Positions 2,615 through 11,124 are shown, numbered from the stretch's first letter. The stretch is 64,000 nt of DNA from Escherichia coli (GCF_003334765.1 NZ_QOWT01000003.1), one strand, 5' to 3'. Notes: generated by a model not told the origin, from the letters alone. A program made the numbers and translations.

Positions 2615-3892
2615 ATGAAAACCAAAGTTGCTGCTATTTATGGCAAGCGGGATGTCCGTCTGCGCGAATTTGAATTGCCCGAAATTACCGATAATGAACT
2701 GTTAGTGAGTGTAATTTCTGACAGCGTCTGTTTATCGACCTGGAAAGCGGCGTTACTCGGTAGTGAACATAAACGCGTACCCGACGATTTAGAAAATCAT
2801 CCGGTCATTACCGGGCATGAATGTGCCGGGGTTATTGTTGAAGTGGGTAAAAATCTCACCGACAAATATAAAAAAGGCCAGCGTTTTGTATTGCAACCGG
2901 CGATGGGGTTACCAAGCGGATATTCAGCGGGCTACAGCTACGAATATTTTGGCGGTAACGCCACCTATATGATTATTCCTGAAATAGCCATTAACCTGGG
3001 CTGCGTATTACCGTATCACGGCTCTTATTTTGCTGCGGCGTCGCTGGCAGAGCCTATGTGCTGCATTATTGGCGCTTATCATGCCAATTATCACACCACG
3101 CAATATGTTTATGAGCATCGCATGGGCGTTAAACCTGGCGGCAATATTGCGCTGCTGGCATGTGCTGGCCCGATGGGCATTGGCGCTATCGATTATGCCA
3201 TTAACGGCGGCATACAACCGTCGCGGGTGGTGGTGGTCGATATCGACGACAAACGCCTGGCCCAGGTACAGAAGCTGCTGCCGGTGGAGCTGGCGGCCAG
3301 TAAAGGCATTGAGCTGGTGTATGTGAATACCAAAGGGATGAGCGATCCGGTACAGAAGCTGCGGGCGCTGACAGGAGATGTCGGGTTCGATGACATTTTT
3401 GTTTATGCGGCGGTGCCTGCTGTCGTTGAGATGGCTGACGAATTACTGGCGGAAGATGGCTGCCTGAACTTCTTTGCCGGGCCGACGGATAAAAACTTCA
3501 AAGTGCCGTTTAATTTCTACAACGTCCATTACAACAGCACGCACGTCGTCGGTACATCCGGCGGTTCAACGGACGACATGAAAGAGGCGATTACCCTTAG
3601 CGCCACGGGACAGTTACAGCCGTCGTTTATGGTGACCCATATTGGTGGCCTGGATGCGGTGCCAGAAACCGTGCTCAATCTGCCGGATATCCCAGGCGGT
3701 AAAAAACTCATTTATAACGGCGTGACCATGCCGCTCACTGCCATTGCCGATTTTGCCGAAAAAGGCAAAACCGATCCGCTGTTTAAAGAGCTGGCGCGGC
3801 TGGTTGAGGAAACGCACGGCATCTGGAATGAGCAGGCCGAGAAATATCTGCTGGCGCAATTTGGCGTTGATATCGGGGAGGCCGCACAATGA
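2615..3892 (+). CDS. yggP: Zn-dependent medium-chain dehydrogenase/reductase (polyol dehydrogenase-like)
   Basis: 425 aa ORF with MDR/alcohol dehydrogenase motifs (GHECAG..., Rossmann GxGxxG region); 4-bp stop/start overlap with next gene. Confidence 0.85.
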   Translation: MKTKVAAIYGKRDVRLREFELPEITDNELLVSVISDSVCLSTWKAALLGSEHKRVPDDLENHPVITGHECAGVIVEVGKNLTDKYKKGQRFVLQPAMGLPSGYSAGYSYEYFGGNATYMIIPEIAINLGCVLPYHGSYFAAASLAEPMCCIIGAYHANYHTTQYVYEHRMGVKPGGNIALLACAGPMGIGAIDYAINGGIQPSRVVVVDIDDKRLAQVQKLLPVELAASKGIELVYVNTKGMSDPVQKLRALTGDVGFDDIFVYAAVPAVVEMADELLAEDGCLNFFAGPTDKNFKVPFNFYNVHYNSTHVVGTSGGSTDDMKEAITLSATGQLQPSFMVTHIGGLDAVPETVLNLPDIPGGKKLIYNGVTMPLTAIADFAEKGKTDPLFKELARLVEETHGIWNEQAEKYLLAQFGVDIGEAAQ

Positions 3893-4854
3893 TGTCCCTG
3901 GCGTGGCCATTATTTCGCGTTACGGAACAGGCAGCGTTGGCTGCCTGGCCGCAAACCGGATGTGGCGACAAAAATAAAATTGATGGCCTGGCGGTCACCG
4001 CGATGCGCCAGGCATTAAACGATGTCGCTTTTCGTGGGCGAGTGGTTATCGGCGAGGGAGAGATTGACCATGCGCCGATGCTGTGGATTGGCGAAGAGGT
4101 GGGCAAAGGCGATGGGCCAGAAGTCGATATCGCGGTTGACCCGATTGAAGGCACGCGGATGGTGGCGATGGGGCAGAGCAATGCGCTGGCGGTGATGGCC
4201 TTCGCCCCACGAGGCAGCCTGCTACACGCGCCCGATATGTATATGAAAAAGCTGGTTGTTAATCGACTGGCGGCGGGCGCGATTGATCTGTCTTTGCCTC
4301 TGGCGGACAACTTGCGTAACGTGGCGCGGGCGTTAGGTAAACCGCTGGACAAGCTGCGCATGGTTACGCTTGATAAACCGCGCCTGAGTGCCGCAATTGA
4401 GGAAGCAACACAGCTGGGCGTGAAGGTTTTTGCCCTGCCGGATGGCGATGTCGCCGCCAGCGTGCTGACCTGCTGGCAGGATAATCCTTACGACGTGATG
4501 TACACCATTGGCGGTGCGCCGGAGGGCGTGATTTCTGCCTGTGCCGTTAAAGCATTAGGCGGGGATATGCAGGCCGAGCTGATTGACTTTTGTCAGGCTA
4601 AAGGGGATTACACGGAAAATCGGCAGATTGCAGAGCAGGAGCGCAAGCGTTGCAAGGCAATGGGCGTTGACGTTAACCGTGTGTATTCGGTCGATGAACT
4701 GGTGAGGGGGAACGATATCCTCTTTAGCGCTACGGGCGTGACGGGCGGCGAGCTGGTGAACGGTATCCAACAGACGGCGAATGGGGTGCGGACGCAGACA
4801 TTACTGATCGGCGGCGCGGACCAAACGTGTAATATAATAGACTCCCTGCATTGA
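3889..4854 (+). CDS. yggF: Class II (GlpX-type) fructose-1,6-bisphosphatase paralog
   Basis: 321 aa ORF, GlpX-family sequence; start ATG overlaps yggP stop (ATGA). Confidence 0.85.
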   Translation: MMSLAWPLFRVTEQAALAAWPQTGCGDKNKIDGLAVTAMRQALNDVAFRGRVVIGEGEIDHAPMLWIGEEVGKGDGPEVDIAVDPIEGTRMVAMGQSNALAVMAFAPRGSLLHAPDMYMKKLVVNRLAAGAIDLSLPLADNLRNVARALGKPLDKLRMVTLDKPRLSAAIEEATQLGVKVFALPDGDVAASVLTCWQDNPYDVMYTIGGAPEGVISACAVKALGGDMQAELIDFCQAKGDYTENRQIAEQERKRCKAMGVDVNRVYSVDELVRGNDILFSATGVTGGELVNGIQQTANGVRTQTLLIGGADQTCNIIDSLH

Positions 4855-8826: not shown

Positions 8827-9906
8827 ATGTCTAAGATTTTTGATTTCGTAAAACCTGGCGTAATCACTGGTGATGACGTACAGAAAGTTTTCCAGGTAGC
8901 AAAAGAAAACAACTTCGCACTGCCAGCAGTAAACTGCGTCGGTACTGACTCCATCAACGCCGTGCTGGAAACCGCTGCTAAAGTTAAAGCGCCGGTTATC
9001 GTTCAGTTCTCCAACGGTGGTGCTTCCTTTATCGCTGGTAAAGGCGTGAAATCTGACGTTCCGCAGGGTGCTGCTATCCTGGGCGCGATCTCTGGTGCGC
9101 ATCACGTTCATCAGATGGCTGAACATTATGGTGTTCCGGTTATCCTGCATACCGACCACTGCGCGAAGAAACTGCTGCCGTGGATCGACGGTCTGCTGGA
9201 CGCGGGTGAGAAACACTTCGCTGCTACCGGTAAGCCGCTGTTCTCTTCTCACATGATCGACCTGTCTGAAGAATCTCTGCAAGAGAACATCGAAATCTGC
9301 TCTAAATACCTGGAGCGCATGTCCAAAATCGGCATGACTCTGGAAATCGAACTGGGTTGCACCGGTGGTGAAGAAGACGGCGTGGACAACAGCCACATGG
9401 ACGCTTCTGCACTGTACACCCAGCCGGAAGACGTTGATTACGCATACACCGAGCTGAGCAAAATCAGCCCGCGTTTCACCATCGCAGCGTCCTTCGGTAA
9501 CGTACACGGTGTTTACAAGCCGGGTAACGTGGTTCTGACTCCGACCATCCTGCGTGATTCTCAGGAATATGTTTCTAAGAAACACAACCTGCCGCACAAC
9601 AGCCTGAACTTCGTATTCCACGGTGGTTCCGGTTCTACTGCTCAGGAAATCAAAGACTCCGTAAGCTACGGCGTAGTAAAAATGAACATCGATACCGATA
9701 CCCAATGGGCAACCTGGGAAGGCGTTCTGAACTACTACAAAGCGAACGAAGCTTATCTGCAGGGTCAGCTGGGTAACCCGAAAGGCGAAGATCAGCCGAA
9801 CAAGAAATACTACGATCCGCGCGTATGGCTGCGTGCCGGTCAGACTTCGATGATCGCTCGTCTGGAGAAAGCATTCCAGGAACTGAACGCGATCGACGTT
9901 CTGTAA
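8827..9906 (+). CDS. fbaA: Fructose-bisphosphate aldolase class II
   Basis: MSKIFDFVKPGVITGDDVQKVF... canonical FbaA, 359 aa; the track ORF begins upstream, conserved start at 8827. Confidence 0.95.
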   Translation: MSKIFDFVKPGVITGDDVQKVFQVAKENNFALPAVNCVGTDSINAVLETAAKVKAPVIVQFSNGGASFIAGKGVKSDVPQGAAILGAISGAHHVHQMAEHYGVPVILHTDHCAKKLLPWIDGLLDAGEKHFAATGKPLFSSHMIDLSEESLQENIEICSKYLERMSKIGMTLEIELGCTGGEEDGVDNSHMDASALYTQPEDVDYAYTELSKISPRFTIAASFGNVHGVYKPGNVVLTPTILRDSQEYVSKKHNLPHNSLNFVFHGGSGSTAQEIKDSVSYGVVKMNIDTDTQWATWEGVLNYYKANEAYLQGQLGNPKGEDQPNKKYYDPRVWLRAGQTSMIARLEKAFQELNAIDVL

Positions 9907-9932
9907 GATATTCCTTTCTGCTTATCTCAAGG

Positions 9933-9960
9933 CCCGCTCTGCGGGTCTTTTTTTCGCCAA
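9933..9960 (+). terminator. Intrinsic terminator after fbaA (copy 1 of a duplicated terminator-like motif)
   Basis: CCCGC-TCT-GCGGG hairpin followed by TCTTTTTTT. Confidence 0.6.
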
Positions 9961-9970
9961 AAGCAAAATT

Positions 9971-10070
9971 GCCTGATGCGCTACGCTTATCAGGCCTACA
10001 CGTATCCTGCAATATATTGAATTTGCAGGTTTTTGTAGGCCGGATAAGGCGTTCACGCCGCATCCGGCAT
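9971..10070. repeat. REP/BIME element (two palindromic units in opposite orientation)
   Basis: GCCTGATGCGCTACGCTTATCAGGCCTAC and GTAGGCCGGATAAGGCGTTCACGCCGCATCCGGCA are canonical REP units. Confidence 0.85.
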
Positions 10071-10099
10071 GACAAAGCGCACATTGATATCTGTCTGAG

Positions 10100-10128
10100 C
10101 CCCGCTCTGCGGGGATTTTTTCGCCAAA
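10100..10128 (+). terminator. Second copy of the terminator-like hairpin plus T-tract, downstream of the BIME
   Basis: CCCCGC-TCT-GCGGGG followed by ATTTTTT, and the following TCGCCAAAAGCAA is shared with copy 1. Confidence 0.5.
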
Positions 10129-10263
10129 AGCAAGGTGATTCAGATGAGAAATCTGTGATCTATTTGGCAAAATTATGCTTTATTGTTTACCCTTGTCAGA
10201 CTGCCCGTCATAAGGCGGCGGAGTGTATTTCTCCATTTTGAGTCAGTTGAAAAGGAATATTGA

Positions 10264-11124
<861 letters not shown>

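What the first reader, a model, noticed from the sequence alone, without database searches (positions are those of the whole stretch)
9933..10133. Duplicated terminator-like segment flanking a REP/BIME insertion downstream of fbaA
An almost identical ~34-bp segment (GC hairpin CCCGCTCTGCGGG + T-tract + TCGCCAAAAGCAA) occurs on both sides of a two-unit REP element, at about 9933..9966 and 10100..10133. This looks like a target duplication or recombination scar made when the BIME entered the fbaA terminator, and it yields two tandem intrinsic terminators ahead of mscS.
Basis: seen in the sequence. Interest (0 to 1): 0.4.

Follow-up and report, generated by a model that had tools for sequence, protein, structure and literature searches.

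The report
Terminator duplicated by BIME-1 repeat insertion
A small mobile repeat (a BIME-1, made of two REP palindromes) inserted into the transcription terminator after the E. coli fbaA gene and left a copy of that terminator on each side; the same hairpin-sized duplication flanks many other BIME-1 copies, which gives a concrete clue to how these repeats spread.

Summary
Positions 9930-9966 and 10098-10133 are direct repeats of 37 and 36 nt, differing by 3 substitutions and 1 T, and they flank a complete BIME-1 (z1 REP, 35-nt linker, y REP, right external motif).

- Citrobacter and Pseudescherichia have one terminator and no REP at this spacer.
- About 30% of 5,426 complete E. coli genomes carry an allele exactly 167 bp shorter, with one copy. 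About 69% carry the filled allele.
- Rare alleles carry two BIMEs and three repeat copies.

The main result goes beyond the finding. Among 42 distinct BIME-1 sites, 9 have a locus-specific direct repeat of a GC hairpin abutting the constant element ends, against 0.5% of mismatched-site controls. Four further filled/empty pairs (pitA-uspB, artJ-rlmC, metE-ysgA, yajD-tsx) show one hairpin when empty and two when filled.

The duplication length follows the hairpin (about 18-27 bp, 36 bp here). This fits neither fixed-length transposon duplications nor the duplication-free IS200/IS605 mechanism. The BIME-1 presence/absence polymorphism is known, but I found no description of this footprint in the papers I could read. 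The biochemical mechanism is inferred, not shown.

The parts
8827..9906 (+). fbaA coding sequence (class II fructose-bisphosphate aldolase), last gene of the epd-pgk-fbaA cluster. Its terminator was the insertion target.
   Evidence: The ORF ends at 9906. RefSeq annotation of identical K-12 DNA gives fbaA. epd-pgk-fbaA-mscS-argO gene order is shown.
9930..9966 (+). Repeat copy A1, a complete intrinsic-terminator-like unit: stem-loop 9929-9949, T7 run 9948-9954, 12-nt tail CGCCAAAAGCAA 9955-9966. It is identical to the single copy in empty alleles.
   Evidence: RNA fold is -14.1 kcal/mol with a 9-bp stem. It matches the short allele exactly.
9967..9970 (+). AATT, all that remains of the canonical BIME-1 left external motif (GAGACTGATGACAAACGCAAAAyT). 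The junction lies in a microhomology: target CAAAAGCAA against element CAAACGCAA.
   Evidence: Comparison with 42-45 other BIME-1 copies.
9971..9999 (-). z1-type REP (29 nt, GTAGGCCTGATAAGCGTAGCGCATCAGGC on the minus strand).
   Evidence: Exact match. Nomenclature from PMC8266576.
10000..10034 (.). L linker of BIME-1 between the two facing GTAG heads. It carries an IHF-consensus-like site (minus strand AATTCAATATATTG, 10010-10023). Rfam family ES036/CssrF matches 9992-10034 on the minus strand.
   Evidence: Rfam score is 47.3 bits against a gathering score of 37.6. The linker is conserved across BIME-1 copies. The IHF consensus WATCAANNNNTTR is from my own knowledge.
10035..10069 (+). y-type REP (35 nt, GTAGGCCGGATAAGGCGTTCACGCCGCATCCGGCA).
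   Evidence: Exact match. Nomenclature from PMC8266576.
10070..10097 (+). Right external motif of BIME-1 (TGACAAAGCGCACATTGATATCTGTCTG; family consensus ATAAACAAAGCGCACTTTGTCAACAATCTGA). It is part of the element, not of the target.
   Evidence: Present at the same position in most other BIME-1 copies.
10098..10133 (+). Repeat copy A2, a second terminator-like unit: stem-loop 10100-10114, T6 run 10116-10121, tail CGCCAAAAGCAA 10122-10133. Its stem carries a compensatory G.T to C-G change relative to A1.
   Evidence: RNA fold is -11.6 kcal/mol with a 6-bp stem. This copy is degenerate in E. whittamii.
10134..11124 (+). mscS upstream region (10134-10263, identical in filled and empty alleles) and mscS coding sequence (10264-11124).

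Best explanation
The repeat is the target-site duplication left by one BIME-1 element (z1 REP, IHF-type linker, y REP, external motifs) inserting into the intrinsic terminator downstream of fbaA.

Shown:
- The ancestral spacer has one hairpin plus T-tract.
- The filled allele has the hairpin, T-tract and 12 more nt on both sides of the element.
- The same layout is the usual footprint of BIME-1 insertion elsewhere: a locus-specific terminator hairpin in two direct copies, abutting constant element ends that are imperfect terminal inverted repeats.
- The duplication length follows the hairpin (about 18-27 bp, 36 bp here) rather than being fixed.

Inferred: the target is recognised and cut as a structure. 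Each strand is nicked at a foot of the extruded hairpin or cruciform, the element is joined in, and gap repair copies the whole stem-loop. The enzyme could be the REP-associated Y1 transposase TnpA_REP/RAYT or a host enzyme.

Also inferred: the left junction at fbaA is atypical. Either the nick fell 19 nt downstream of the hairpin foot, or a canonical hairpin-only duplication was later extended by gene conversion anchored on the hairpin and on the CAAA(A/C)GCAA microhomology. Either route restores a T-tract to the upstream copy.

After insertion the 36-bp repeats recombine unequally and produce alleles with 0, 1 or 2 BIMEs.

Predicted consequence, not tested: fbaA transcripts stop at A1, before the BIME, and A2 acts as a back-up terminator or insulator ahead of mscS.

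The confidence of 0.8 applies to the shown part (target duplication made by BIME-1 insertion, and a general footprint). The specific cleavage mechanism deserves about 0.3.
For: Repeat and anatomy:
- The repeat, the REPs and both terminator-like units are in the sequence as described.

Empty allele and polarity:
- The empty allele is exactly 167 bp shorter, with a single A1-type copy followed by the right flank of A2. It is found in CFT073, A31 and others. About 1,627 genomes carry it and 3,720 of 5,426 carry the filled allele.
- Citrobacter spp. and Pseudescherichia have one orthologous hairpin plus T-tract and no REP.
- E. whittamii and Escherichia sp. E1V33 share the same atypical left junction, which indicates a single old insertion.

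Ongoing recombination:
- Two-BIME, three-repeat alleles occur in E1V33 and in E. coli SW070917.
- Both the filled and the empty state occur with all three alleles of a SNP 7 nt from the repeat, and with both alleles of the left marker.

Generality:
- 45 BIME-1 sites were collected from public contigs.
- In 9 of 42 distinct sites, the windows abutting the element ends align with score >=20, against 0.5% of 1,722 mismatched-site pairs.
- The left copy ends 23-26 nt before z1 and the right copy starts 29-32 nt after y.
- Filled/empty pairs at pitA-uspB and artJ-rlmC and at metE-ysgA and yajD-tsx show one hairpin when empty and two when filled.
- At artJ-rlmC each copy has its own substitutions relative to the empty allele, so that empty site is ancestral.
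- The element termini are inverted repeats with 12 of 14 positions matching.

Context from papers:
- The dissemination mechanism of REP/BIME is stated to be unknown (PMC8266576).
- TnpA_REP cuts only single-stranded DNA at C|T near REP hairpins (PMC3333891). Both conserved element termini (GAGAC|TGA and AATC|TGA) and the C|TTTT foot of the fbaA and metE terminators contain that dinucleotide. This is a lead from the sequences, not a test.
Against: - No experiment links TnpA_REP or any other enzyme to these junctions.
- Simple C|T cleavage and joining chemistry does not by itself reproduce the observed left junction, in which the hairpin is followed by GAGAC.
- Only about a quarter to a third of BIME-1 sites show a clear duplication. 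Others have a hairpin on one side or none. One documented case of decay (yajD-tsx in E. coli B) supports loss of a copy but does not prove it for all sites.
- At fbaA-mscS the empty E. coli allele cannot be told from a precise deletion between the repeats. The filled allele is shared with other Escherichia species, so some or all E. coli empty alleles may be secondary.
- E. albertii, E. fergusonii and Salmonella were not obtained.
- Termination at A1 or A2 was not measured.
- The 1990s papers on BIME polymorphism could not be read, so prior description cannot be excluded.
Confidence: 0.8

Rival explanations
1. The duplication arose by replication template switching or microhomology-mediated repair at a stalled hairpin, not by staggered enzymatic cleavage. 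A nascent strand leaves the terminator hairpin, copies a BIME-1 elsewhere or from an excised single-stranded copy, then returns upstream of the hairpin and copies it a second time.
For: The left junction at fbaA lies in a 9-nt near-identity between target (CAAAAGCAA) and element (CAAACGCAA). REPs and terminators are strong single-strand hairpins (polymerase stalling sites at a BIME are reported in PMC3333891). Variable duplication length is natural for such a process.
Against: In the canonical sites the element ends are constant to within a few nucleotides and abut the hairpin feet exactly. No microhomology between the element termini and the different target hairpins is visible. A template-switch process would be expected to give more ragged ends.
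Confidence: 0.2
2. The original insertion at fbaA duplicated only the hairpin (about 18 bp), as at other loci. The present 36-bp repeat is secondary: gene conversion from the downstream copy replaced the first 20 nt of the element's left external motif with the 19-nt T-tract plus tail. This is a two-step sub-variant of the main explanation.
For: The missing element sequence (GAGACTGATGACAAACGCAA, 20 nt) and the extra duplicated sequence (TTTTTTTCGCCAAAAGCAA, 19 nt) are almost the same length and end in the same near-identical 9-mer. The right junction is canonical. Copies at this locus demonstrably exchange sequence: E1V33's third copy is A1-like, and there are 0, 1 and 2-BIME alleles. The result restores a T-tract to the upstream hairpin, which is a plausible selective advantage.
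Against: No lineage retaining the predicted intermediate (hairpin directly followed by GAGACTGATGAC) was found. E. coli, E. whittamii and E1V33 all have the 36-bp form.
Confidence: 0.35
3. The polymorphism in E. coli reflects deletion, not insertion. The filled allele is ancestral for E. coli, and every short allele is a secondary precise deletion by recombination between A1 and A2.
For: The filled allele with the same junctions is present in E. whittamii and E1V33. A1 and A2 differ by about 8%, comparable with between-species divergence of mscS. Two-BIME alleles prove unequal exchange between the repeats. Both states occur on all nearby SNP backgrounds.
Against: This concerns only polarity within E. 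coli and leaves the origin of the repeat unexplained, since more distant relatives have one copy and no BIME. No chimeric short allele (A1 5' half joined to A2 3' half) exists among 5,426 genomes, although the 13-nt identical hairpin core should host a fraction of crossovers. Recombination between Escherichia species at this spacer is evident in strain E69, whose fbaA is coli-like while its mscS is 11% divergent, so the filled allele could have moved between species.
Confidence: 0.4
4. The two copies are similar by chance, or because terminators resemble each other, and have no common origin.
For: None beyond the general resemblance of GC hairpins followed by T runs.
Against: About 33 of 36 positions are identical, including a 12-nt non-hairpin tail. 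The alignment score is 52 against a 99th percentile of 22 for mismatched sites. The empty allele differs by exactly the repeat period.
Confidence: 0.01

Closest known systems
BIME-1 (also called RIP or RIB elements) of E. coli: one y and one z1 REP around an IHF-binding L linker. Their presence/absence polymorphism among isolates is known (Bachellier et al. 1997, as summarised in PMC1187871; structure in PMC3333891).
   Same: Same components, order, orientation and size. The element is a single copy at the 3' end of a transcription unit and is present or absent among E. coli strains.
   Different: The papers I could read describe presence/absence ('excision of a whole BIME-1') but not a flanking duplication of the host terminator hairpin. 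At fbaA-mscS the duplication is the longest seen here (36 bp) and the left external motif is truncated.
REPIN/RAYT (TnpA_REP) system, related to IS200/IS605 single-strand transposition
   Same: BIME-1 is a REP doublet that folds as one long hairpin in single-stranded DNA. Its dispersal is attributed to the single-copy Y1 transposase. Both conserved termini contain the C|T dinucleotide the enzyme needs in vitro.
   Different: [quoted passage not shown] Here there is a long, structure-sized target duplication. No published model for BIME spread that I could read predicts it.
MITEs and classical DDE insertion sequences with target-site duplications
   Same: A short non-coding element with terminal inverted repeats (12 of 14 positions) flanked by direct repeats of target DNA.
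   Different: Classical duplications have a fixed, short length (2-14 bp, from my own knowledge). An IS3-family insertion in this same spacer has a 3-bp duplication. The BIME-1 duplication varies from about 18 to 36 bp and coincides with a whole stem-loop.
REP dimers 'inserted within small palindromes' in Thermomicrobium roseum and Halothiobacillus neapolitanus (Di Nocera et al. 2013, PMC3733652)
   Same: REP doublets associated with a palindromic target.
   Different: Those are described as elements lying between the two halves of one palindrome. Here a complete hairpin is present on each side in direct orientation, as shown by asymmetric loops, G.T positions and the T-tract tail.
Bacterial class C group II introns, which insert just downstream of intrinsic terminator stem-loops (my own knowledge, not checked here)
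   Same: Terminator hairpins serve as a structural landmark for a mobile element, which places insertions at harmless 3' ends of genes.
   Different: A different kind of element and chemistry (ribozyme and reverse transcriptase), and no duplication of the hairpin.

Membership tests
BIME-1 (RIP/RIB) repeat family | One y REP and one z1 REP in inverted, head-to-head (GTAG facing GTAG) orientation | tested here: met
   z1 is at 9971-9999 on the minus strand and y at 10035-10069 on the plus strand, both exact matches to the type sequences (definitions).
BIME-1 (RIP/RIB) repeat family | Long conserved L linker carrying an IHF site, in a single (not tandem) copy | tested here: met
   The 35-nt linker is conserved with 40+ other copies and contains AATTCAATATATTG on the minus strand. 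There is one unit in this window. IHF binding itself was not tested.
BIME-1 (RIP/RIB) repeat family | Conserved external motifs outside both REPs | tested here: inconclusive
   The right motif is present (10070-10097). The left motif is reduced to AATT plus a microhomology.
Intrinsic (Rho-independent) terminator | GC-rich stem-loop immediately followed by a T/U tract | tested here: met
   Both A1 and A2 pass the pattern scan. A1 folds at -14.1 kcal/mol with U7 and A2 at -11.6 kcal/mol with U6.
Intrinsic (Rho-independent) terminator | Transcripts actually end there | not testable with these tools
   No 3'-end mapping data were examined.
Target-site duplication of a transposable element | An empty site with one copy of the repeat exists, and the filled site equals the empty site plus the element plus a second copy | tested here: met
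   fbaA-mscS, pitA-uspB and artJ-rlmC, metE-ysgA and yajD-tsx.
Target-site duplication of a transposable element | Duplication length fixed and characteristic of the element | tested here: not met
   Lengths are about 18, 20, 22-26, 26-27 and 36 bp at five loci and follow the hairpin size.
IS200/IS605-type single-strand transposition (proposed for REP/BIME) | No duplication of target DNA on insertion | tested here: not met
   Duplications are present at 9 of 42 sites under strict geometry. The family property is quoted.
IS200/IS605-type single-strand transposition (proposed for REP/BIME) | Cleavage and joining by the Y1 transposase at its recognition sites | not testable with these tools
   Only a sequence lead: C|T is present in both element termini and at the 3' foot of two target hairpins (fbaA-mscS, metE-ysgA). 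In vitro specificity is from PMC3333891.
Rfam RF02751 ES036 (CssrF) sRNA | Score above the family's gathering threshold | tested here: met
   47.3 bits against 37.6 at 9992-10034 on the minus strand. The match is to the BIME-1 linker, so it probably reflects the repeat family rather than a distinct gene. Expression was not tested.

The most novel reading that the evidence does not exclude
BIME-1 elements, the REP doublets of E. coli, spread by a structure-directed insertion that has not been characterised. The target is an intrinsic-terminator hairpin, cut at its two feet (as an extruded hairpin or cruciform, or in single-stranded DNA), so that the whole stem-loop is duplicated on both sides of an element with defined, inverted-repeat termini. 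This would explain why BIME-1 sit at the 3' ends of transcription units, why insertions are tolerated (a terminator is regenerated), and why no fixed-length duplication was expected or looked for. It would give a testable footprint for the 40-year-old question of how REPs disseminate.
Probability: 0.4. Interest if true: 0.8.

Novelty: new variant of a known kind. Interest (0 to 1): 0.6.

Why it matters
REP/BIME sequences are the most abundant repeats in E. coli. How they disseminate is still described as poorly understood (PMC8266576). The candidate enzyme belongs to a family that leaves no target duplication.

A reproducible footprint was found here: a duplicated terminator hairpin, constant inverted-repeat ends, and a duplication length set by the structure. 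It defines what the insertion reaction must do and suggests direct experiments using terminator hairpins as targets.

The footprint also explains the known 3'-end location of BIME-1. It shows how an insertion into a terminator can preserve, or here double, termination. It also shows that the resulting repeats keep generating copy-number alleles (0, 1 or 2 BIMEs) in natural populations.

For genome annotation, it warns that 'tandem terminators' next to REPs are insertion scars.

Tried and rejected
- **Outgroup search, partly failed.** It did not return E. albertii, E. fergusonii or Salmonella. Only four Escherichia and about ten orthologous outgroup spacers were usable.
- **Protein search, uninformative.** The search for homologous proteins with MscS listed only E. 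coli sequences at 98-100% identity.
- **FbaA look-up.** The look-up of encoding contigs with FbaA gave only long and short spacer alleles with E. coli-level fbaA divergence, no new species. It was still useful for haplotypes.
- **Test for deletion, negative.** I searched for a chimeric short allele (A1 5' half joined to A2 3' half), which would prove deletion from a filled allele. None exists among 5,426 genomes.
- **Generalising within the window, not possible.** The window holds only one other BIME (37596-37758, a different type), so public contigs were used instead.
- **First flank-divergence count, discarded.** It was corrupted by an indel in the pgk-fbaA spacer and was redone on coding sequence only.
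- **Other Rfam hits.** naRNA4, AS-pc01, MIR2587 and GcvB are all below their gathering scores and lie on REP sequence, so I treat them as noise.
- **Promoter scan.** One promoter-like match on the minus strand, no more than expected by chance.
- **Literature not held.** Bachellier 1997 (PMC1207841), Gilson 1991 (PMC333889) and Boccard & Prentki 1993 (PMC413762) could not be read.
- **Literature read.** Searches and readings of PMC2817692, PMC3184786, PMC3333891, PMC8266576, PMC3733652, PMC3337134, PMC1187871, PMC12306157 and three bioRxiv preprints found no description of the hairpin duplication.
- **Simple cleavage model, rejected.** A model in which TnpA_REP C|T cleavage and joining alone makes both junctions does not reproduce the observed left junction.

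Full report
**What is there**

The window between fbaA (ends at 9906) and mscS (starts at 10264) contains two direct repeats. A1 is at 9930-9966 and A2 at 10098-10133. They are 37 and 36 nt long and differ by three substitutions and one T. Their last 18 nt are identical. Each repeat is a GC stem-loop, a T run and the 12-mer CGCCAAAAGCAA.

Both copies match the intrinsic-terminator pattern. As RNA, A1 folds at -14.1 kcal/mol (9-bp stem, U7) and A2 at -11.6 kcal/mol (6-bp stem, U6). One of the substitutions in A2 is a compensatory G.T to C-G change in the stem.

Between the repeats lie:
- a z1 REP (9971-9999, minus strand)
- a 35-nt linker with an IHF-consensus-like site
- a y REP (10035-10069)
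- 28 further nucleotides (10070-10097)

Comparison with other copies shows that these last 28 nt are the right external motif of the element. This is a BIME-1, using the nomenclature of PMC8266576 and PMC3333891. Rfam's ES036/CssrF family matches the linker above threshold, which I read as a match to the repeat family. As single-stranded DNA the two REPs pair into one long hairpin (z = -5.7).

**Is it more than chance?**

Yes. The two flanks align with a score of 52. Left and right flanks taken from different BIME-1 sites reach 22 at the 99th percentile.

**Insertion or not**

- 3,720 genomes carry the filled spacer.
- About 1,627 carry a spacer exactly 167 bp shorter.
- The short allele has one A1-type copy, followed directly by the sequence that follows A2 in the filled allele. 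CFT073 is an example.

The orthologous spacers of six Citrobacter species, Pseudescherichia vulneris and a related isolate have one hairpin plus T run at the same distance from mscS, and no REP. The nucleotides after the T run (GCC ... AGGTGA) are recognisably conserved with Pseudescherichia. The 12-nt tail is therefore native DNA, not element DNA. The one-terminator, no-BIME state is ancestral, and the two-copy state arose together with the BIME. I found no genome with two copies and no BIME.

**History at this locus**

E. whittamii has the filled allele with the same unusual left junction, but its second hairpin has decayed. Escherichia sp. E1V33 has three repeat copies and two BIMEs. E. coli SW070917 also has two identical BIME units. 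So the insertion is old, or has moved between species by homologous recombination, and the repeats undergo unequal exchange.

Strain E69 has a coli-like fbaA (11 differences) next to an mscS that differs at 96 of 860 sites. This points to a between-species recombination junction at or near the spacer.

Within E. coli, both the filled and the empty state occur with all three alleles (T, A, G) of a SNP 7 nt to the right of the repeat. Both states also occur with both alleles of a marker just after the fbaA stop codon. The state has therefore changed several times, or recombination break-points cluster in the repeats.

I searched for a chimeric short allele that would prove deletion by a crossover inside the hairpin core. 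None exists. Whether E. coli's short alleles are ancestral empty sites, precise deletions or both remains open.

**The broader result**

I collected BIME-1 copies from viral and metagenome contigs, using a pattern that spans both REP heads. This gave 45 sites, 42 of them distinct. Most copies share constant ends:
- left end: GAGACTGATGACAAACGCAAAAyT, before z1
- right end: ATAAACAAAGCGCACTTTGTCAACAATCTGA, after y

The outermost 14 nt of the two ends are inverted repeats of each other, with 12 of 14 positions matching.

Many copies have a locus-specific GC hairpin abutting both ends, in direct orientation. Asymmetric loops and G.T positions show the orientation.
- Using only the windows that abut the ends, 9 of 42 sites score >=20, against 0.5% of 1,722 mismatched-site pairs.
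- With wider windows, 11 of 45 sites exceed the 99th percentile.
- The left copy ends 23-26 nt before z1 and the right copy starts 29-32 nt after y.
- 27 of 45 sites have a GC hairpin abutting at least one end. Control windows further out have 9 (left) and 2 (right).

**Filled against empty at other loci**

| Locus | Filled allele | Size difference | Empty site | Filled site |
|---|---|---|---|---|
| pitA-uspB | 1,940 of 5,426 E. coli genomes | 173 bp | AGCGGGCCAGTAAACTGACCCGCTCG + TTTT | that hairpin, the element, the hairpin again (4 nt lost from the loop), TTTT |
| artJ-rlmC | 3,192 of 5,426 E. coli genomes | 170 bp | one 18-bp hairpin AAGCCGCAnnnGCGGCTT | hairpin on both sides |
| metE-ysgA | a non-coli Escherichia-like contig; no filled allele found in E. 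coli (no genome covers >=80% of the filled query) | about 171 bp | one hairpin | about 20-bp hairpin duplicated |
| yajD-tsx | a non-coli contig and some E. coli | about 180 bp | one hairpin (strain PEC1013) | about 26-bp hairpin duplicated |

At artJ-rlmC each copy has substitutions of its own relative to the empty allele. That empty site therefore cannot be a recombinant of the two copies and is ancestral. At yajD-tsx, the common E. coli allele has lost the left hairpin copy and the left motif by a 41-bp deletion. This shows how sites with a hairpin on only one side arise.

Duplication of the host terminator hairpin is thus the normal footprint of BIME-1 insertion, and its length follows the hairpin.

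**How fbaA-mscS differs**

The right junction is canonical: the element's ...TCTGA abuts the 5' foot of the hairpin. On the left, the first 20 nt of the external motif are missing. In their place, the upstream copy carries the 19-nt T run plus tail. The junction falls in a 9-nt near-identity between target (CAAAAGCAA) and element (CAAACGCAA).

There are two possible routes. In the first, the insertion used a nick 19 nt downstream of the usual position and lost the end of the element. In the second, a canonical hairpin-only duplication was later extended by gene conversion, anchored on the hairpin and on that 9-mer. The near-equal lengths favour the second route. No lineage with the intermediate was found, so I leave it at about one in three. 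Either way, this locus has two complete terminators. At the canonical sites only the copy on the native T-tract side keeps the T tract.

**Mechanism (inferred)**

A duplication that equals a stem-loop, beside constant element ends, implies cuts on the two strands at opposite feet of the palindrome, followed by repair synthesis across it. A fixed-stagger DDE transposase does not do this. An IS3-family insertion found in this same spacer has a 3-bp duplication. IS200/IS605-type single-strand insertion leaves no duplication.

TnpA_REP is the obvious candidate. In vitro it acts only on single-stranded DNA and cuts at C|T near REP hairpins. Both conserved element termini contain C|TGA, and the fbaA and metE terminators have C|T at the 3' foot of the stem. 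However, simple cleavage and joining at those positions does not reproduce the left junction, so this is a lead only. A template-switch or microhomology route is the main rival. The sharply defined ends argue against it.

**Function (predicted)**

A1 is identical to the single terminator of empty alleles and is conserved in every filled allele examined. A2 varies between species and is degenerate in E. whittamii. This fits A1 being the working fbaA terminator and A2 a partly redundant back-up ahead of mscS. The region downstream of A2, including the mscS upstream sequence, is identical in filled and empty alleles.

**What is known and what is not**

BIME-1 structure, its IHF site, its position at 3' ends of transcription units and its presence/absence among isolates are all established. 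The dissemination mechanism is stated to be unresolved. None of the papers I could read mentions a flanking duplication of the terminator hairpin. The original 1990s descriptions were not available, so I cannot exclude that flanking repeats were noted there.

**Verdict**

The locus itself is an ordinary kind of polymorphism with an unusually long duplication. It led to a general, statistically solid footprint of BIME-1 insertion that bears on an open mechanistic question. Interest is 0.6. I classify it as a new variant of a known kind.

Noticed in passing
Loci L102, L108/L125, L109, L115, L118, L119, L136, L138, L148, L153, L160, L169 (BIME-1 sites from metagenome contigs): A locus-specific terminator-like hairpin is present in direct duplicate on both sides of BIME-1, abutting constant element ends. 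This is a general pattern and not confined to fbaA-mscS.
   Followed up: yes
L090 (E. coli EC21GDE043), spacer positions about 3500-4810 of the locus: An IS3-family element sits in the fbaA-mscS spacer of a short-allele strain, about 40 nt downstream of the terminator tail, with a 3-bp target duplication (ATT). It makes a useful contrast with the 36-bp duplication around the BIME.
   Followed up: partly
L006 (strain E69, labelled E. coli): Its fbaA differs from the window at 11 of 1080 sites, but its mscS differs at 96 of 860. This suggests a between-species recombination junction at or near the spacer.
   Followed up: partly
L088 (E. coli S1-SRB-02-B) and L221: An extra gene for a TRAP-transporter (DctP-type) substrate-binding protein lies between mscS and argO, and mscS is called as 291 instead of 286 residues. 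In these strains the A1 tail has diverged to TTTTTTTTGCTAAAAGAAA.
   Followed up: no
window 9992-10034, minus strand: Rfam family ES036 (CssrF sRNA) matches above its gathering score. The match is to the BIME-1 linker, so the family may largely describe this repeat rather than a unique gene.
   Followed up: partly
window 37596-37758: This is the only other REP cluster in the window. It is a different arrangement (z2/y-type units with short linkers). It was not examined for flanking repeats.
   Followed up: no
L009-L014, L016, L017, L041 and others (Citrobacter, Trabulsiella, Pseudocitrobacter): These genomes carry a second mscS-like gene (about 90% protein identity to E. coli MscS) downstream of a LysR-type regulator gene instead of fbaA. 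It appears to be a paralogous or relocated copy.
   Followed up: no
L092 (viral-contig collection): This BIME-1 lacks the external motifs and lies between two BoxC-like hairpins (CCCTCTCC...GGAGAGGG). It is unclear whether this is a target duplication or two units of another repeat family.
   Followed up: no
L097: This BIME-1 is followed by a second y REP with its own right external motif, which is a partial tandem duplication of the right half of the element.
   Followed up: no
L220 (E. coli B derivative), yajD-tsx spacer: The common E. coli allele keeps the BIME-1 and the right hairpin copy but has lost the left hairpin copy and most of the left external motif, about 41 bp in all. This shows that one copy of the duplication can decay.
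   Followed up: partly
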